Below, one piece after another: positions 5,996 through 60,089 of a DNA stretch of 64,000 nucleotides. The stretch covers positions 365,552,001 to 365,616,000 of the forward strand of contig OZ024742.1 in NCBI GenBank assembly GCA_964016885.1, in the 5' to 3' direction. This DNA comes from Eledone cirrhosa (lineage: Eukaryota). Both the position numbers and the translations under genes were made by a program. The notes below the pieces were generated by a model, which was given only the letters and a program-made list of their open reading frames with translations, was not told where the DNA came from and ran no database searches. Position 1 is the first letter of the stretch. Each line of letters begins with the position of its first letter.

Positions 5996-6730
5996 TATGT
6001 ACACGTACATACATATATGTATACAGACGTACAGTAGTATGTATATATATATACATACATGCACACATATATATATATGCACGTATGGATTCACCGAACA
6101 TTTATTATAAAGCTCGGTGTGCTTGTAAACAAACAAACATCCCGTATTAAGCCGTAGTGTCCAGCAACCATCGTTGCTCGTTTGTTCAACATTGACAAAG
6201 GGACGCTGTACTAGTTTCAAGCTTATTAGCTATCGTCAGCAACGTATACCTTCCTGCCAGATTGTTGAACGTATATACTTACTTTATGCATATTAACGGC
6301 TGAGTAGCCCAATTTGCATATCGAGTGGGTTAATCGGCCGGGTGCACCGAAAACGATAAACAGGAAAGATGAAACGAAATTTCATTTCCCACTCTTAGTA
6401 CGGCTGTTACTGGCAGGAAGGTATACGTTGCTGACGATAGCTAATAAGTTTGAAACTAGTACAGCGTTCCTTTGTCAGTGTTGAACAAACGAGCAACGAC
6501 GGTTGCTGGACACTACGGCTTAATACGGGATGTTTGTTTACAAGCACACCGAGCATTATAATAAATGTTCGGTGAATCTATACGTGCATATATATATGTG
6601 TGCATGTATGTATATATATATACACACTACTGTACGTCTGTATACATATATGTATGTACGTGTACATACTTATATTTAAGTAACAGCCGTACTAAGAGTG
6701 GGAAATGAAATTTCGTTTCATTTTTTCCGT
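5993..6730. mobile_element. Family E fold-back element with HHR in both arms
   Basis: 5993-6260 inverted at about 6410-6672; 6364-6410 inverted at about 6679-6722; (TA)n flanks; remnant at about 61535-61700. Confidence 0.85.
6425..6467 (+). ncRNA. Minimal type I hammerhead ribozyme (family E)
   Basis: ACGTTG-CTGACGA-T-AGCT(AATA)AGYT-T-GAAA-CTAG-TA-CAGCGT: 6-bp stem I, palindromic stem III, GUA site; mirror copy 6203-6245 (-). Confidence 0.85.
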
Positions 6731-25237: not shown

Positions 25238-25422
25238 TACATGAATGAAAGTTCTGTTCAAATCATTTATTAGCTTACAATTGTAATACTATATATATAT
25301 ATATATATATATATACATGCACACACATACATACAAAATACACATGCGTACACAAAATTACATACACACATATATACACTCACATATATATATATATACA
25401 AATGTACATATATATATATACA

Positions 25423-26161
25423 AGTTAGCTAGATTGAAAAATACTAATTAGATTAATACAGTTTGCCTGTCTCGATTTAAAATAATAAATCAATAAAAAC
25501 AAACCCATATTGGCAATAGCCGTGATACCTGGACAAATTTAAATTTCAAAATCCAAACCTGTTCCGAAGACAAATTTAAATTTCAAAACCCAAATAAGTT
25601 TCGCAACGATAATTTAAAAAAGTGAAAAATGCCAATTCCTGTGGTCATCAACAGGTATCCAGAAATTAGCATGTTTCACCTCGAAATATTTTTGAAGGAC
25701 TGGTAATCAAATGCTAACGCACGTGGTTTCCCAGCTCCTAGCTAGCCCCATACTCATGCTGCTAGAAATAACAGCCTTCTATATGGGATTAAAATTTAGC
25801 TCAACAACAGGAGCCGTTAAATATTATATTTAGAGTTATAAACTCAAACAGTCTTTTACAATTAATTAGCTCAAAGAAAGAAGCATTTCTGAGCCGTGAA
25901 ATACAAGTTAATATAAATTAATATATGATAAACACCAATATGAACATATAAGTGTTTGCATTGTAAACGACCAAATTAGCTAGATTGAAAAATACTAACT
26001 AGATTAATACAGTTTGCCTGTCTCGATTTAAAATAATAAATCAATAAAAACAAACCCATATTGGCAATAGCTGTGATACCTAGACAAATTTAAATTTCAA
26101 AATCCAAACCTGTTCCGCAGACAAATTTAAATTTCAAAACCCAAATAAGTTTCGTAACGAT
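25423..26161 (-). mobile_element. Family L element, unit of about 550 nt (1.3 copies)
   Basis: About 25426-25610 repeated at about 25976-26160; diverged homolog at 32415-33165. Confidence 0.85.
25524..25659 (-). ncRNA. Atypical hammerhead with 30-bp stem III (family L1)
   Basis: GATACCTG-TTGATGA-...-GAAA-long G-U-rich hairpin capped by C(TTCG)G-TC-CAGGTATC. Confidence 0.7.
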
Positions 26162-26479: not shown

Positions 26480-26547
26480 TTTTATCTGATGAGAACGCAA
26501 TTATCGTCCCAGGATGATATTTTATATTTGAAATGCGCATAATAAAA
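26480..26547 (+). ncRNA. Type I hammerhead (family M-related)
   Basis: TTTTAT-CTGATGA-...TATCGTC..GATGATA...-GAAA-TGCGCA-TA-ATAAAA. Confidence 0.7.
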
Positions 26548-28539: not shown

Positions 28540-29341
28540 AGATCAAAAGATGGTTAAAGGAGTTCCATGTATTTTATTATGCGCATTTCAAAAACAAACA
28601 TCATCATGCAATAATATTTGTGTTTTCATCAGATAAAACAGGAGAACATGATATGAAGGCTAAAAAACACTTGTGGATAGTGCAGTTTTAAATCAACATA
28701 TGAAAAGTGGTTTTAGATTGATGTGTGATATTGGGAAAAATATTTTATTTAGAGAGGGGGGGGGGGGATGAAAAAGGGGAGGAGATGAGAGGGAGAGATG
28801 GGTGATAGAGATAGTTTTTATAACTGAGAGAAGATATATTGTTTTACATAGAGAGGTTGAAAACCGTTGGAAGGTAATGTATAAATTAAAAGAATTTGAA
28901 AATTAACGAAGGGAAGATATGTACGAGGAAAAAATATTTTATTTAGGGAGGGAGGGGGTGGAAAGGATGAAAAAAGGGGGAGGAGATGAGAGTGAAGGTG
29001 GAGAGGGAGAGATGGGTGATAGAGAGAAAGAGATAGTTTTTATAACTGAGAAAAGATATATTGTTTTACATAGAGAGGTTGAGAACCGTTGGAAGATAAT
29101 GTATAAATTAAAAGAATTTGAAAATTAACGAAGGGAATTTATGTATGAAGATAGAGAGAAAAAATAATAATTGTGGATGAATATTCTAACGTCAAAAAAA
29201 GTGTATGTTGATAAGTATTGTGGCAATTTCAAAATTAACGAAGAGAAAAAATTATTAAGGTTTGTGTGTAGAAGGATTTGAGAAAAATAATGTGAAGTTA
29301 AAGTTTGTATATTGAAGGAATTGATAATATGTGCGAATAAA

Positions 29342-30060: not shown

Positions 30061-30829
30061 CGTAAAATAAGAAAATTATAAAATTAACTTACTTACTAAA
30101 ATATCACTTCCAACTAATTAGTTTCTGGAATGGAGTAAATATATTTTCCGAAGAAGATATAGAGAATATAATTTTCTTGTTTTACGTCTCTCATATTATT
30201 GTTCTGCAACCCCATGCATTGAACCACAATGTTACTAAGACAAAACCTATATATTTGATAGCATTGATATGCATCTGTATGTATATATATGTTACTAGAT
30301 ATTAATTCTTTATAATTATCTCCAAATTATTTGTCGAGCAATATTGGCCATGACTGCTGCTATGGTAGCAGGCAGGCCGCTGTCTTATTAGCAAACCACT
30401 TTCCACTGATTGACCTCGATGTTACGTGATTGATTCTTTTTGAATTCGCCACCGACGCAGAGGCAGTGATTTTCTCAATGGCTAGGAATTCAGTCCACGC
30501 TTTGCTATTTCCTATCCACTGAATTATTTTTTAATAAGTTTCCAGAGTCCTCGCTTTGCCTGGAAACTTAGCTGAGAATAGACTTCCCTGACGACGGAAT
30601 GTTTCTCTATATCTTCTTCGGAAAATATATTTACTCCATTCCAGAAACTAATTAGTTGGAAGTGATATTTTAGTAAGTAAGTTAATTTTATAATTTTCTT
30701 ATTTTACGTCTCTCATATTATTGTTCTGCAACCCCATGCATTGAACCACAATGTTACTAAGACAAAACCTATATATTTGCTAGCATTGATATGCATCTGT
30801 ATGTATATATATGTTACTAGATATTAATT

Positions 30830-32414: not shown

Positions 32415-32417
<3 letters not shown>

Positions 32418-33165
32418 TAAAATATATGATAAACACAAAACATGTTTGCATTGCAACAGACAAAGTTAGCTATTAATGAAATAAACTAATTAAAGTGAAT
32501 ACAATTTGTCTGTCTCGATATAAGTCAATAAAGACAAGCTTATATTGGCAACGGCCATGATTCCTGGACAGATTTAAATTTCAAAATCCAAACCTGTTCC
32601 GTAGACAAATTTGAACCTCGAAACCTAAATCCGTTTCGGTGGTATGTGAATTGAAAAATAAAGAGAATCGAAATGGAATTGAAATAAAAAGTGAAATATC
32701 CAAATCTACTGTGCTTATCAACAGGAATCCAGTAAAATTAGTACATCTCACATCAAAAATTCTGCAGGTCTGACTACACGTGTGTAGCCAGGCCAAACTA
32801 GCCGTTCCGCATTCCCGGTGCTAGAAATAACAGCCGTTTATGCGGGATTAAAGATCAGCTCTACAGTTAAGGAGCAATATACTATATTATATTTTGAGAA
32901 TAAACCCTCAGTCGTTTACAATAATAAAGCTCCAAGAAAAGGGGCATTTCCGAGCAGTTAAATACATTAAAATATATGATAAACACAAAACGTGTTTGCA
33001 TTGCAACAGACAAAGTTAGCAATTAATGAAATAAACTAATTAAAGTGAATACAATTTGTCTGTCTCGATATATTTTAATGTATTTAACTGCTCGGAAATG
33101 CCCCTTTTCTTGGAGCTTTATTATTGTAAACGACTGAGAGTTTATTCTCAAAATATAATATAGTA
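32415..33165 (-). mobile_element. Family L second copy (550-nt unit plus inverted arm; HHR 32559-32729)
   Basis: ACATTAAAATATATG at about 32415 and 32964; 33070-33165 inverted versus about 32878-32975; GATTCCTG-TTGATAA...GAAA-30-bp stem C(TACG)G-TC-CAGGAATC. Confidence 0.85.
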
Positions 33166-35031: not shown

Positions 35032-35533
35032 TACACGGGTGTGCATGAGTGTGTATAGAAGATTATATTAATAAGAGGAATTCCAACTTTGTCTGATTTA
35101 ATCGTTTTATTTACAATCCTTTAAAATTTATAATGGTATTAGAATGAAATAGTATGATAGAATATTAAATTCTAAGTGTTAATTGAACAAGTACTTTCAT
35201 GCTTTCGCAATCTTCAGGTTCATAATATGTGGTGACAGTCAAGTTTGCAATTTTCAACTGTAATGAGATGGGTAAATTTTGTACATTATATACAGTGAAA
35301 AGTGGTTCTAGAATGCTAAATCTTGCAAACTGTATTTCGACCAATCGGTGTGTAGTTTCACTGAATTACTAAAGCTGATTGGTTTAAGCGTCACGGCTGG
35401 TTGAGCATGTCTAACGACCAATAATTAATCCTATCCAAAGCATCAATTGTTTTGCTATTTTTAGAAATGATGAAAATAGCATTTTCTAGTAATCATCACC
35501 ATCAACATCACTTTTATTATTATTATTATTATT

Positions 35534-35567
<34 letters not shown>

Positions 35568-35648
35568 TGTTGTTGTTGTTAGTGGTTGTAGTCGACATGG
35601 ATATAGTCATAGACATAGTCATATTAGAAGTAATACCCCTAAGCGTTA

Positions 35649-37124
35649 TTATTGTTCATTTAGCTTGGGTTTGAATTTATCAATAACATTCTTTTCTTTG
35701 ATTTTTCTCTTGATTTCACTTGGGCTGTGTAATTTGTAGAATGGGAATATTATAAATATTCCCTGACCACATGTTGCTAGATGGTTACTTAGGGGTATCT
35801 GACGGATATTTGGGTCTCTGATTTGCTTACGGTGTACCCGTGCACGTTCCGATATTGCATTTCCAGTTTGACCGACATATAGTTCTTCACAATTCGGACA
35901 TTTAATGCAGTAAATTAGATTTCTGCTTTTGCAGTTCATATTTGCATTTGGGAATAATTTTCCAGTTTTTGTTTTCATATATTGACCGGTGTTTATGGAT
36001 TGACATGTGCCACATCGACTATCATTGCATTTAGATACAGTGAATGATTGGTCTTTGTTGTTAAGGTCAAACTTTGCTTTTGTTAGTAATTGCTTCACAT
36101 TTTTTGGCTGTCTTTTACTAAGAGTCAAAGATCGATCTGTGATTAAGCCTTTTAATTCATTACTTTGAGCAATGATCGGTTGGTTTGATTTGGCAGTGTT
36201 GAAGATATTCTGGTGACATGGGTTGTGTGTCATTATAAATGGTATGACCAGTTCTTGGTTTCTTCTTCCTTGGGTTGTCCTAAGTTGTTGTATAGGTATT
36301 TTTATAGCCCGCTGTATGCCATTTTCTATAAGTAGAGATGGGTATTTTTGTTTCAGCAAAAATTCTCTTAGTTCTGTTAGGCGTTTGTACCTGGTATTCG
36401 TATCTTCTACAATGGTACACGTTCTTCTGGCCAGGCAGTATGGGATGTTGCGTTTTGTATGAGGTGGATGGTACGACTTAAAATTCAGATATTGATGGGT
36501 GTCTGTGTGTTTATAATATATATCCGTGGTAATGGTGGCGTCGCTTTTGATTATCATTATATCTAGGAATGGTAATTTGGTCCTACTCATCTCTTTTGTG
36601 AATTGGAGAGATGGGTGTAGGTTATTCAGGAGGATATTGAACTCATCCAGAGTATCTAGAGATCCTGTCCAGATGATGAAACAGTCGTCAAGGTATCTCT
36701 TCCAAGATTTTTCAATGTACTTTCTAAATTCAGTACTATATTTTTCCTCTATTTCTTGGTAGAGTTGTTGTTCTAAGTATCCCATTACAGAGTTCGCGTA
36801 AACGGGAGCAAACTTCGTTCCCATCGCTGTGCCTCTAATTTGGATGTAATTCTTTTCATTGAAGAAGAAAGTGTTGTTTTGCAGAATAAGTTTAACTGCG
36901 TCTAATATAAATGGCGCTGTGAATCTGATGGGAATCACTTCTCTATGTTTTTCCACCCAGTATTTAACCGCCTTTATTCCTAAATCATGTGTAATGTTGG
37001 TGTGAAGGCCTACCACATCAAAACTAAGTAGAAGTGAATTCGTTTCCGTGGTTTTGGGAAGATGGGACAGGAAGTCGATATCATCCCGGATGAAACTGGG
37101 TATGTGAATACATAGTGGTTTCAA
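35649..37124 (-). CDS. Open RT plus GIY-YIG portion of the Neptune-like PLE (upstream part to about 38287 disrupted)
   Basis: SFDVVGLHTNI, GTAMGTKFAP, RYLDD, YYKHTDTHQYL, CNDSRCGTC linker, LIYCIKC..YVGQTG..R; upstream QADKGGAVV at 37356-37559. Confidence 0.9.
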   Translation of the reverse strand: MKPLCIHIPSFIRDDIDFLSHLPKTTETNSLLLSFDVVGLHTNITHDLGIKAVKYWVEKHREVIPIRFTAPFILDAVKLILQNNTFFFNEKNYIQIRGTAMGTKFAPVYANSVMGYLEQQLYQEIEEKYSTEFRKYIEKSWKRYLDDCFIIWTGSLDTLDEFNILLNNLHPSLQFTKEMSRTKLPFLDIMIIKSDATITTDIYYKHTDTHQYLNFKSYHPPHTKRNIPYCLARRTCTIVEDTNTRYKRLTELREFLLKQKYPSLLIENGIQRAIKIPIQQLRTTQGRRNQELVIPFIMTHNPCHQNIFNTAKSNQPIIAQSNELKGLITDRSLTLSKRQPKNVKQLLTKAKFDLNNKDQSFTVSKCNDSRCGTCQSINTGQYMKTKTGKLFPNANMNCKSRNLIYCIKCPNCEELYVGQTGNAISERARVHRKQIRDPNIRQIPLSNHLATCGQGIFIIFPFYKLHSPSEIKRKIKEKNVIDKFKPKLNEQ

Positions 37125-38941
37125 AATAATGTCAACAAAATTGCTTAGATGGTGGGTGGGGCATGTTGGACCAGCTATAATAGGTCTAAGTTTTAAGTCT
37201 TTTGGGTGTAGTAATTTAATGTACTCACTGTTTTGTTCTCTTACTGCCAGTTGTATTTCTTTTGACTTATGAACTTTCGGTAGGCCATACAGGTTGCTGG
37301 GTTTTGGCTCAAAATTGGTGATGTAGTCTCTTTCCTTATCAGTAAGTGAGTTGTGTTATTTTGAAGCCAGGTTGTTGATCTTCTTCATGATGTTGTGGTC
37401 TATATTTGACGGTATTTCATGATAGAATGTTGTGTCTTTCAGTTGTTCCTCAACCAAATCCTTGTAGTATTCAGTATTCATTATAACAACTGCACCCCCT
37501 TTATCTGCTTGTTGAATTATTATTGTTTTATCATTTTGTATACGTTTAAGTGCAGACATTTCTGATTTGTTAATGTTTGGCCTAACATTAGTATTATGTC
37601 TAAGAGGAAATTTAGACAGGATGTCAATGTATTGGTCGAGATAGATATTTCTTCCTTTTGGCGGAGTGAAATTTGATTTATTCTTTACTAGTGATTCATC
37701 ACTCTCATTACTTTTATCAGCGAAGAATTCTACAAGTTGTTATTTTCGACAGAATTCTTGGGTATCCTCCTTCAGTTCTTGGTGGTTGACTGTTGGAGTC
37801 GGTGTGAATTTCAATCCTGTTGACAGAATTTACATTTCATCATTGTCAACATCTCTTTTAGATAAATTAATTATTTTAGGATCTACGTGTACAGTTGTTT
37901 TGGGTATGTTTCCTCCTGGAGTTTTTCTTTTTCCGATTTTTTTGTCCTGACGTTAAAAAATGGATTTTTCTCTGTCAGGATTTATATTCCTGTTGGTGTT
38001 CGCTTTATGAACTTTTGGTCGTGATATTATATTTGGTTTCGTTATGTATTTTGTTCTATTTTTGGTATTATGTATATTATTTTTCCTGTTAGCATTATTT
38101 TTAACAATCTGGGGAAATGACCTATGTTTGCTTTCAGGTTTAGATCGTCTTTTCGCCCAGCTTCTTGTGGGCAATCTCTGTTGAGATCTTGAGAGTGATC
38201 TGGTTATTCTACGTTTTGTTTCCACATTCCTTGTTGGTAGTCTCTGTTGAGATCTTGAGAATGATCTCCTGGTTTTACTACTTCTCAAAAGCAGAAATCT
38301 AATTTACTGCATTAAATGCCCGAATTGTGAAGAACTATATGTCGGTCAAACTGGAAATGCACTATCGGAACGTGCACGGGTACACCGTCAGCAAATCAGA
38401 GACCCAAATGTCCGTCAGATACCCCTAAGTAACCATCTAGCAACATGTGGTCAGGGAATATTTATAATATTCCCATTCTACAAATTACACAGCCCAAGTG
38501 AAATCAAGAGAAAAATGAAAGAAAAGAATTTTATTGATAAATTCAAACCCAAGCTAAATGAAGAATAATAACGCTTAGGGGTATTATTTCTACTATGACT
38601 ATGACTACAACCACTAACAACAACAACAACAATAATAATAATAATAATAAAAGTGATGTTGATGGTGATGATTACTAGAAAATGTTATTTTCATCATTTC
38701 TAAAAATAGCAAAACAATTGATGCTTTGGATAGGATTATTTATTGGTCGTTAGACATGCTCAACCAGCCGTGACGCTTAAACCAATCAGCTTTAGTAATT
38801 CAGTGAAACTACACACCGATTGGTCGAAATACAGTTTGCAAGATTTAGCATTCTGGAGCCACTTTTCACTGTATATAAGGTACAAAATTTACCCTTCTCA
38901 TTACAGTTGAAAATTGCAAACTTGACTGTCACCACATATTA

Positions 38942-48519: not shown

Positions 48520-48574
48520 ACTGCCTGAAGAGGTCACAGCCAAAGATGGCTGTCACTGAAATATATATAGCAGT
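48520..48574 (+). ncRNA. Type I hammerhead
   Basis: ACTGC-CTGAAGA-GGT-C-ACAGCCA(AAGA)TGGCTGT-C-ACT-GAAA-TATATA-TA-GCAGT. Confidence 0.85.
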
Positions 48575-52225: not shown

Positions 52226-52626
52226 GGAGGTGAGTTTTATTGTAGTACAATAAAGCAATGCAGATATCGGATAAGAAGCACTCTACAGTTTGTGGGACTG
52301 GAGTATGCATAATATAAGATCAAAAGATGGTTAAAGGAGTTCCATATATTTTATTATGCGCATTTCAAAAACAAACATCATCAAACAATAATATTTGTGT
52401 TTTCATCAGATAAAACAGGAGAACATGATATGAAGGCTAAAAAACACTTGTTGATAGTGCAGTTATATGTTGATTTAAAACTGCACTATCAACAAGTGTT
52501 TTTTAGCCTTCATATCATGTTCTCCTGTTTTATCTGATGAAAACACAAATATTATTGTTTGATGATGTTTGTTTTTGAAATGCGCATAATAAAATATATG
52601 GAACTCCTTTAACCATCTTTTGATCT

Positions 52627-52674: not shown

Positions 52675-53545
52675 GATCGACTTTGGTCGAATCGGACCGA
52701 GGAAACAATGTTTCTATTGGTCTTTCCAGTTGCTAGTACTATCTATCGGTCGCAACTCCAGGTAGAAGGAGTAACGTGAAATAAAGTGTCTTGCTGAAGG
52801 ATATAACGCATCACCCTGTCCGGGAATTCACCTATATATATATATCCCTGTCTCTATAAAATATTTTGCGATGTTCCTTCCGGTTTTCTGCGCTCTTAGT
52901 TCAAATTCTACCAAGGTCAACATTGCCATTCTTTCCAGCTCGGGACATATGGACCAATTCAGTACTGGTGTAGGTTCTTCCTCTATATCTCTCTCCCCCT
53001 TCTTCTCTGGGTGATGTTAGCTGTGTTCAGAACCGGAGAGGCATGAGATCCAGCAGGTTTTAAACGCCCAAGGAACGTATGTCATTAGAGCATTAGAACA
53101 CTCTACAAGTTCATACATACATATCAAGGCATTAGCCATATGTTGAGTAGATGTAGGATCATATCATAGTTCTTTACCTAATCCCACCAACAGTCAGAAG
53201 TTTCATGTTGAGGGCGATGGCTTAATGGTTATAGCATTTTGTTCTTGAACAAAACAGATTTGAGCATTTCATTCCAATAGAGCGTTTAGACACATGTTGT
53301 GTCATGGTGAATCTTCCTGAGAATTACAATAAAAATCCACGTGTCTCATAATTGCGCAGTGAATTTGAATAGCAAGTTGTTCTGTTGATCGAAAAGTTGA
53401 AACACATTTCGTCGAAACCGATGGAAGTCCACCACACATCTTAGTCTGATCACGCTAGTAATCAGCCATTTTATATATATATATATGACTGCCATGACTG
53501 AATTTTAACCATCTACTTAGTCAAGGTATGTCATGCATCATCTTA

Positions 53546-53608
53546 TTTTATTTGATGAGGACGTACTGTTGAAGATAGCTCAGTACCTCTGAAATATGTA
53601 TAATAAAA
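53546..53608 (+). ncRNA. Hammerhead with TTGATGA core
   Basis: TTTTAT-TTGATGA-GGA-C-GTACTG...CAGTAC-C-TCT-GAAA-TATGTA-TA-ATAAAA, in a (TA)n-flanked insert. Confidence 0.7.
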
Positions 53609-53651
53609 TATACTTGATCACACGAATGTCTATATTTGTTAATATTTTGAA

Positions 53652-56468: not shown

Positions 56469-56747
56469 AATCATGTCCTTAGAATCATTAGATAAAATAT
56501 TTACCATTTCCTCTCCCAATTAGCATAATTAACCATATCAAAAAATCAATTAGACCAAGCTATAAGAAGAAAGGCTCTTATGAAGAAATCTCCGACAAAA
56601 AACCGAAAGTGGCCTTTTCGCGGTGGCCCCAATAGAGTATTTATCCAACATTTCGACAGCATGTAGAAACTGACTAAATATACCATCAACCATACACAAT
56701 TAGGTGTAAAATCAAACTTAGAAGAAATGTGTACATACCGTAATTAT

Positions 56748-56824
56748 ATCTCTACCATGGTTTCATCCGTATTTTTAGACATCCAATTAATAGGAATGTC
56801 TTGAGTTAGGATTCATCAGGAGAC
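56748..56824 (-). ncRNA. Type I hammerhead with extended stem II (family R, insert about 56465-57070)
   Basis: GTCTC-CTGATGA-ATCC..AGACATTC..GGATGTCT..GGAT-GAAA-CCATGG-TA-GAGAT. Confidence 0.8.
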
Positions 56825-57066
56825 AAACTCAAAATTAGACATTTAGTTTTCCAACGTGATCGCGCCAAAATTAGATTTAAAAATGGCTAAGAATCGCAAT
56901 GTGGCTGTGGTCAAGCTAGAAAGAATGTGATTGGTTGCTTACGGCAGGTAGGTTTGTTGCTAGAAAGCGCAGCCAAATGTCGCTAAGTTGTATCTCAACC
57001 TAACGGGAGATTATTAAATATAAAGGTTTACATATACATAAAGTTATAGATATATATGTTGCAACC

Positions 57067-57126
<60 letters not shown>

Positions 57127-57184
57127 CGAACGAGTAGGACCCCGACGGCTGAGCTCAAGCCGTTTCGACGGCTAATTCTGGACT

Positions 57185-60089
<2,905 letters not shown>

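What the first reader, a model, noticed from the sequence alone, without database searches (positions are those of the whole stretch)
32559..32729. Unusual hammerhead with a 30-bp G-U-rich stem III capped by UNCG (family L)
Seen on the minus strand in two diverged copies (25524-25659 and 32559-32729). The 8-bp stem I covaries (GATACCTG/CAGGTATC versus GATTCCTG/CAGGAATC). Cores are UUGAUGA and UUGAUAA with a GUC site. Stem III is about 30 bp with C(UUCG)G in one copy and C(UACG)G in the other. PLE-type HHRs usually have a tiny palindromic stem III, so this one might cleave as a monomer. Stem II pairs poorly in both copies, so they may be inactive.
Basis: partly seen in the sequence, partly recalled or inferred. 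Interest (0 to 1): 0.75.

Follow-up and report, generated by a model that had tools for sequence, protein, structure and literature searches.

The report
Hammerhead with doubled stem and pseudoknot
About two thousand copies of a short non-coding repeat, likely a passenger of Penelope-type jumping genes, carry a hammerhead self-cutting RNA motif whose normally tiny third stem is a long rod, likely made by doubling a palindrome, plus an extra conserved helix predicted to brace or gate cutting, which is untested.

Summary
The motif is real. Both copies lie in a ~550-base non-coding repeat with Penelope-type insertion anatomy; 1,931 exact genome matches to the stem III cap. Across nine subfamilies stems I and II covary, and the core is mostly canonical or U3-A8. 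Stem III is two direct repeats, 37 bases apart, of a G-U palindrome; the UNCG cap sits on the junction, and single-arm copies exist. Fixed changes keep its pairing (12 of 12; singleton changes 14 of 37). The weak stem II is a private deletion in one window copy and a subfamily trait in the other, so these two copies are probably inactive; 39 of 56 complete copies in a core-blind sample look intact. Best reading: a pseudoknotted, monomer-competent hammerhead of a Penelope-dependent retrozyme. Main rival: P blocks the monomer and forces pairing between tandem copies. No cleavage or expression data. The scan described the duplicated stem before on other DNA of this genome (e1-9547562); I reached it before reading that note.

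The parts
32415..32964 (-). Full unit of the non-coding repeat, subfamily A (555 bases in relatives, 550 here); its 3' end abuts a (TA)n run
   Evidence: longest ATG ORF in a sister unit 39 aa
32965..33072 (-). Upstream partial tandem copy (3' end of another unit)
33070..33164 (+). Inverted arm carrying the 83-base tail, ending in (TA)n
32559..32729 (-). Type I hammerhead, copy A: stem I 32729-32722 with 32566-32559; core 32721-32715 (U3-A8 variant); GAAA from 32637; C17 at 32567; stem II 3' strand damaged by a private 5-base deletion
32569..32634 (-). Stem III rod of copy A: two palindromic arms 37 bases apart, UACG loop at 32603-32600
32730..32754 (-). 5' strand of helix P (flank directly before stem I), copy A
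32688..32711 (-). 3' strand of helix P (start of loop II), copy A
25421..25971 (-). Unit of subfamily B, ending in (TA)n
25524..25659 (-). Type I hammerhead, copy B: core 25651-25645 (U3-G8), C-C at first stem II pair, GAAA from 25602, loop 25568-25565 (private UUCG), C17 at 25532
25660..25682 (-). 5' strand of helix P, copy B (partner 25641-25619)
25972..26161 (-). Upstream partial tandem copy with a 5'-truncated hammerhead (stem III and cut site only, about 26075-26161)

Best explanation
This is a type I hammerhead motif in a ~550-base non-coding repeat with Penelope-type insertion ends; its stem III consists of two direct repeats of a G-U palindrome and likely arose by tandem duplication, and a covarying helix P between the 5' flank and loop II is predicted to brace stems I and II so that intact copies would cut as single molecules. 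Steps. Shown: repeat anatomy, core, covarying stems I, II and P, the two-arm build of stem III, single-arm copies, pair-keeping fixed changes. Inferred: (1) an ancestor had one 26-base G-U palindrome as stem III, able to pair with itself or with a tandem neighbour; (2) duplication of the 37-base piece (last three bases of stem II, GAAAC, palindrome, GUC) put both partners into one molecule, and the junction became the C(UNCG)G cap; (3) P stacks on the 3-bp stem II and replaces the usual loop 1-loop 2 contact; (4) transcripts of tandem units are cut once per unit to ~550-base monomers, possibly circularised, and copied into (TA)n by a borrowed Penelope-type RT/endonuclease. The two window copies are probably dead passengers.
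For: Covariation on 15 representative copies: stem I 6 of 8 pairs, stem II 2 of 3, proximal P 4 of 4 changed on both sides; 0 of 500 shuffles reach the observed counts and slid registers fall to 21-55% paired (the structure was read from these sequences, so the controls are lenient). P scores -15.5 to -19.7 kcal/mol in all 9 subfamily majorities; 0-19 of 1000 flank shuffles as good. C3-G8 becomes U3-A8 in subfamily A, a change reported as active (PMC3088659 passages). Core-blind sample of 60 loci: 76 motifs, 56 complete, 39 with intact core and stems, 52 with P at -10 or better. Stem III: 12 of 12 between-subfamily pair states keep pairing against 22 of 47 within-subfamily changes (14 of 37 singletons), Fisher p 6e-4 without correction for relatedness; it folds as RNA (-18 to -31) but hardly as DNA (-2 to -8). 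Duplication: arms match as direct repeats at 20-32 of 34 positions, 1-168 of 20,000 pair-order shuffles reach this in the 6 subfamilies tested; a one-arm pattern gives 148 matches, 0 control; of 30 motifs read, 17 are single-arm and 6 have the junction restored to the stem II 3' strand plus GAAAC. Arm 1 gathers A-C mismatches against itself while pairing with arm 2 is kept, which favours the long hairpin over palindrome dimers. Penelope anatomy: partial tandems, inverted 5' arms, two 3' ends 83 bases apart both landing in TA runs; two of 60 loci are (TA)n-bounded chimeras of a PLE ORF piece joined in sense to a truncated element (L223, L218). A long helix III made Penelope hammerheads cleave as monomers in vitro (PMC4209133).
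Against: No cleavage or expression data. The strand returning from the far end of P to stem II is only about 8-10 bases in subfamilies C, D, F and the commonest old types against a P of about 21 bases (read); my rough length estimate puts the full pseudoknot at the limit there (16 bases in B, over 50 in A). Without the pseudoknot, the free fold beats the hammerhead fold by 4-16 kcal/mol in all 8 copies folded, and it is P plus stem III in 6 of them. Subfamilies B (C-C at stem II; CCGAUGA or UUGAUGA) and E (CAGAUGA/CAGAAGA) spread with damaged-looking cores. No single-arm ancestor with a canonical core survives: only 4 matches, and on the tree single-arm copies are mostly tips, so most are later deletions (subfamily D not in the tree). 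Stem III has few two-sided changes (3 of 31 pairs). No excess of 5' truncation at the cut site. No autonomous element carrying this hammerhead was found. Eight of nine Xenopus retrozyme dimers tested did not cleave (bioRxiv 10.64898/2026.07.22.740005), so intact-looking motifs can be silent.
Confidence: 0.55

Rival explanations
1. P is a gate, not a brace. It forms first during transcription, holds stem I 5' strand, core and stem II 5' strand in an 18-base loop, and tethers the rest too far away, so a monomer (or circle) stays uncut; cutting needs P to fray or needs the loop of one unit to pair with the GAAA-stem III-GUC half of a tandem neighbour. The self-closed long stem III would make that second half a stable module.
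For: Short return linkers (8-10 bases) in the oldest, canonical-core subfamilies; P plus stem III is the free fold in 6 of 8 copies and the enforced hammerhead is 4-16 kcal/mol less stable; units occur in tandems; dimer dependence is the rule for animal Penelope hammerheads (PMC4209133).
Against: P joins stems I and II with no linker and both stems keep fixed lengths (8 and 3), as expected for a stabilising pseudoknot; about 40% of hammerheads use one (PMC3088659). The linker is long in A and B. Fraying of the distal part of P would relieve the strain.
Confidence: 0.25
2. Catalysis is optional: the stems are kept as a handle for the borrowed reverse transcriptase or for RNA stability, and the core is decaying.
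For: B and E amplified with non-canonical cores or no first stem II pair while keeping stems I, III and P; no cut-site footprint among truncations; Naiad elements spread without canonical hammerheads (PMC8557442).
Against: Canonical core in most of a core-blind sample; compensatory U3-A8 in the young subfamily A, whose full units are 96-100% alike; stem II covaries.
Confidence: 0.15
3. The rod is kept as a small-RNA (Dicer-type) precursor and the hammerhead is incidental.
For: Length (about 30 pairs), strand-specific G-U pairing and conservation of arm 2.
Against: The rod is explained by duplication and is fixed in register on the catalytic core; single-arm lineages spread too; Rfam gives no precursor match here.
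Confidence: 0.05

Closest known systems
Metazoan non-LTR retrozymes (Cervera and de la Pena 2020, PMC7229834, passages; Li, Clavereau and Pollet 2026, bioRxiv 10.64898/2026.07.22.740005, parts 1-3 of 5)
   Same: Non-coding AT-rich unit with one type I hammerhead, monomers and short tandems, dependence on Penelope-like elements proposed; 550 bases is inside the reported 51-972 range.
   Different: Helix III there is 1-2 bp with a tetraloop and loops 1 and 2 make the canonical contact; here helix III is about 30 bp of doubled palindrome and a ~20-pair flank-loop II helix takes that place. Circular RNA is shown there, untested here.
[quoted passage not shown]
   Same: Type I wiring, U3-A8 variant, palindromic helix III ancestry, partial tandem and inverted insertions with a one-sided tail (PMC8557442 passages).
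   Different: Animal motifs have no or tiny helix III and work as dimers; a large helix III with monomer activity was reported for fungal and protist elements, without recognisable helix I-II contacts. No coding partner carrying this motif was found.
Pseudoknotted hammerheads (Perreault et al. 2011, PMC3088659, passages; PK hammerhead structure, Zhan et al. 2024, PMC11300833, passages)
   Same: Very short stem II combined with a base-paired contact between the stem I and stem II regions.
   Different: Reported pseudoknots are about 4-6 bp; P here is about 20 pairs with internal loops, formed by the 5' flank. The crystallised PK form has a different connectivity (6-bp PK from the loop of a 5-bp helix IV with an A-rich third strand); the return strand here is U-rich.

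Membership tests
Type I hammerhead ribozyme | Core boxes CUGANGA and GAAA with NUH site in type I order | tested here: met
   Canonical or U3 variants in most complete copies: 39 of 56 pass all core and stem checks. Not met in old B and E (position 4 changed).
Type I hammerhead ribozyme | Three helices around the core supported by covariation | tested here: met
   stem I 6 of 8, stem II 2 of 3, stem III 3 two-sided and 11 one-sided of 31. Stem II is broken in both window copies.
Type I hammerhead ribozyme | Site-specific self-cleavage | not testable with these tools
   Needs in vitro transcription; truncation proxy gave no excess.
Metazoan non-LTR retrozyme | Short non-coding tandem unit with one type I hammerhead per unit | tested here: met
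   Units of about 500-555 bases, up to three in tandem in the loci read; longest ATG ORF 39 aa.
Metazoan non-LTR retrozyme | Short helix III (1-2 bp plus small loop) typical of the described motifs | tested here: not met
   About 30-bp rod in 9 of 9 subfamily majorities; single-arm copies still give 13 bp.
Metazoan non-LTR retrozyme | Accumulation of linear and circular monomer RNA | not testable with these tools
   No RNA run listed.
Non-autonomous Penelope-like element | Partial tandem plus inverted 5' arm, one-sided tail, microsatellite target | tested here: met
   two 3' ends 83 bases apart, followed by TA runs in 11 and 16 subfamily-A junctions.
Non-autonomous Penelope-like element | Terminal sequence shared with an identified autonomous partner | tested here: inconclusive
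   No shared pLTR with the PLE families sampled; two chimeras point to ORFs with a CX4CxxC linker (Neptune/Nematis type by motif, no tree built).
Pseudoknotted hammerhead | Base-paired contact between stem I and stem II regions with covariation | tested here: met
Pseudoknotted hammerhead | The contact coexists with stems I and II and raises the cleavage rate | not testable with these tools
   No pseudoknot energy or RNA 3D model available; linker lengths are borderline in C, D, F.

The most novel reading that the evidence does not exclude
A natural hammerhead that has swallowed its own dimer partner at stem III and moved control to a 20-pair gate: helix P keeps single or circular units uncut and lets tandem units cut by swapping enzyme and substrate halves through stems I and II, with one-arm and two-arm, short-linker and long-linker versions alive in one genome as a ready-made series for testing why retroelement hammerheads need to pair.
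Probability: 0.2. Interest if true: 0.75.

Novelty: new variant of a known kind. Interest (0 to 1): 0.5.

Why it matters
Why animal Penelope and retrozyme hammerheads are built to cut only in pairs, and whether cutting matters for their spread, is open. This family shows a simple route from the paired to the self-contained form (duplicate the palindrome), an unusually long stem I-stem II contact, and natural variants (one or two arms, short or long linker, intact or broken core) that can be compared directly at the bench. Motifs with a 64-base stem III and a 30-80-base loop II also escape Rfam models, so such ribozymes may be undercounted.

Tried and rejected
Rfam scan: no hammerhead hit at either copy. 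Expression: no RNA holder listed; no evidence either way. ADAR editing as source of the G-U pairs: rare variants in stem III show A>G 2.5 and T>C 2.6 per 1000 site-copies, no excess; rejected for within-subfamily changes, not testable for the ancient ones. Cut-site footprint: among 10 and 12 pattern hits with a break near the cut site, at most one event (triplicated, L177-L179) lies at it; no enrichment, small sample. Autonomous partner: GIY-YIG search (150 of 10,597 candidates scored, 30 loci read), 9 fetched regions, 3' UTR comparisons found none; the best hit L224 was no better than shuffles. The window's own PLE at 35649-37739 has a different, minimal hammerhead. My idea that UACG versus UGCG tracks each subfamily's stem II strand failed: UACG occurs with several stem II strands; only the register of the junction holds. 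A surviving single-arm canonical ancestor: 4 hits only. An automatic annotation attempt mis-called cores and was replaced. The tree used 111 of 161 extracted copies, outside the hammerhead, midpoint-rooted, without subfamily D. Luense et al. 2017 (dimeric PLE hammerheads) is not held; I know it only through a review.

Full report
Observation. Both motifs are present as described on the minus strand, and a third truncated copy lies at about 26075-26161. The rod folds much better on the given strand than on the opposite one. Rfam finds no hammerhead here. The window is part of a 3.0-Gb assembly rich in (TA)n and Penelope-type ORFs, evidently an animal; earlier scan notes call it a cephalopod, which I did not check.

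The carrier. Each motif sits in a ~550-base unit. Searches with the two units returned 1,970 and 3,033 first-look candidates, 40 scored each; an exact 17-letter pattern on the loop and arm 2 gives 1,931 matches and 0 for the control. Insertions are partial tandems with an inverted 5' arm and two alternative 3' ends 83 bases apart, both landing in TA runs, the arrangement described for Penelope-like elements (PMC8557442, passages). The unit has no ATG ORF over 39 aa. Contigs of four other coded organisms hold pieces of the element; two show the arm 2 deletion of the older subfamilies and one holds a 147-base piece across the rod, so the two-arm form predates those splits.

The ribozyme across the family. 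From 134 two-arm copies I sorted nine subfamilies. Cores: CUGAUGA or CUGAGGA (C1, C2, D, F), UUGAUAA (A, A2), UUGAUGA (young B), CCGAUGA (old B), CAGAAGA (E). Stem I is always 8 bp, stem II 2-3 bp. On 15 real copies 6 of 8 stem I pairs and 2 of 3 stem II pairs change on both sides. In 60 loci taken in genome order from the list, 76 motifs were found; 20 were truncated or broken, and 39 of the 56 complete ones passed all core and stem checks. The window's A copy alone lacks five bases of the stem II 3' strand; B as a whole has C opposite C at the first stem II pair. U3-A8 and 1-2-bp stems II are known to be compatible with activity (PMC3088659, passages).

Origin of the rod. Each arm has the form GAAAC-like, 26-base G-U palindrome, GUC-like, and the arms align as direct repeats at offset 36-37 with 20-32 of 34 identities, most differences being transitions; shuffling pair order reaches this in 1-168 of 20,000 trials in six subfamilies. 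The repeat length equals three bases of stem II, GAAAC, the palindrome and GUC, so the C(UNCG)G cap is the junction. A one-arm pattern finds 148 places; of 30 motifs read, 17 are single-arm, 6 have the junction reading like the stem II strand plus GAAAC, and 7 are two-arm copies with a changed loop. On a tree of 111 copies built outside the ribozyme, two arms are the general state, single arms are mostly tip losses, and only E spread them; canonical-core single arms are rare (4, against 99 two-arm matches of which a few are unrelated). The single-arm ancestor is therefore inferred, not seen. The rod is under RNA-level constraint: all 12 extra pair states between subfamilies keep pairing, against 14 of 37 singleton changes; it is stable as RNA and not as DNA; arm 1 loses self-complementarity while keeping its pairing to arm 2. 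No editing signature was found.

Helix P. The 22-25 bases before stem I pair with the first 18-22 bases of loop II in all nine subfamilies (-15.5 to -19.7 kcal/mol; 0-19 of 1000 shuffles), with two-sided changes in all four pairs next to stem II and one of eight distal pairs (three rows are misaligned there). P crosses stems I and II, so it is a pseudoknot if all form together. Pseudoknots of 4-6 bp stabilise about 40% of hammerheads (PMC3088659); the crystallised PK hammerhead is wired differently (PMC11300833). The strand returning from P to stem II is 8-10 bases in the old subfamilies, 16 in B and over 50 in A; by a rough estimate of mine (about 2.8 A per pair, 6-7 A per extended base) the short ones are at the limit. 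Without pseudoknots the hammerhead fold is 4-16 kcal/mol above the free fold. P therefore either braces the active fold or gates it; this is the main open point.

Mobilisation. No coding element with this hammerhead was found. Two of the 60 loci are single (TA)n-bounded insertions in which an internal piece of a PLE ORF is joined in sense, over a few shared bases, to a 5'-truncated unit (L223, 96% like the window's own PLE; L218, another family). Template switching by a PLE enzyme is the simplest reading; deletion between nested elements is not excluded.

Comparison and novelty. It works like a non-LTR retrozyme or pLTR-only Penelope passenger (PMC7229834, passages; bioRxiv 2026, parts 1-3) but fails the short-helix-III trait. 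Large helix III with monomer activity is known from fungal and protist PLEs (PMC4209133). I found no paper describing a doubled-palindrome stem III or a 20-pair flank-loop II helix in an animal hammerhead in eight searches; the library lacks Luense et al. 2017 and I saw no supplements (Perreault S4/S8, Cervera figures), which may hold such cases. Verdict: a real, well-supported structural variant of a known kind, untested for activity; interest 0.5.

Noticed in passing
window 35185-37739, minus strand: Penelope-like element with RT and C-terminal GIY-YIG (Pfam), ORF broken by stops, and a minimal hammerhead with a 4-base palindromic stem III at about 35185-35221.
   Followed up: partly
window 56747-56825 minus; L152:327-406 minus; L116:3112-3199 plus: Unrelated hammerhead families with short palindromic stem III also seem to pair their 5' flank with loop II by eye; the shuffle test on single copies was not significant (23-48 of 200).
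   Followed up: partly
window 57176-59900, plus strand: Another Penelope-type ORF in pieces with a different cysteine linker; its 3' region holds a hammerhead-like motif with a very long stem II.
   Followed up: no
window 6425-6467, 26480-26547, 28570-28640, 30582-30663, 48520-48574, 52347-52417, 52526-52596, 53544-53610: At least four further hammerhead families with short palindromic stem III, several as inverted pairs.
   Followed up: no
L002, L003, L017, L020, L028 (subfamily A): Five loci have an arm whose 5' end falls at unit position 198-200, a few bases before helix P: possible transcript start or RT stop.
   Followed up: no
L186-L245: 19 of 76 motifs are 5'-truncated between stem I and the loop of stem III, suggesting RT stalls or jumps in the structured part.
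   Followed up: no
window 25421: The B copy ends about 70 bases short of the family's usual 3' end, at a second AACTTG followed by (TA)n.
   Followed up: no
subfamily A loop II (window 32690-32640): A ~40-base pyrimidine-rich insertion lengthens the linker between P and stem II only in subfamily A.
   Followed up: partly
L065, L090: A different repeat with CUGAUGA, a hairpin and a distant GAAAC that does not fit type I order; possibly the rearranged hammerheads of earlier scan notes.
   Followed up: no
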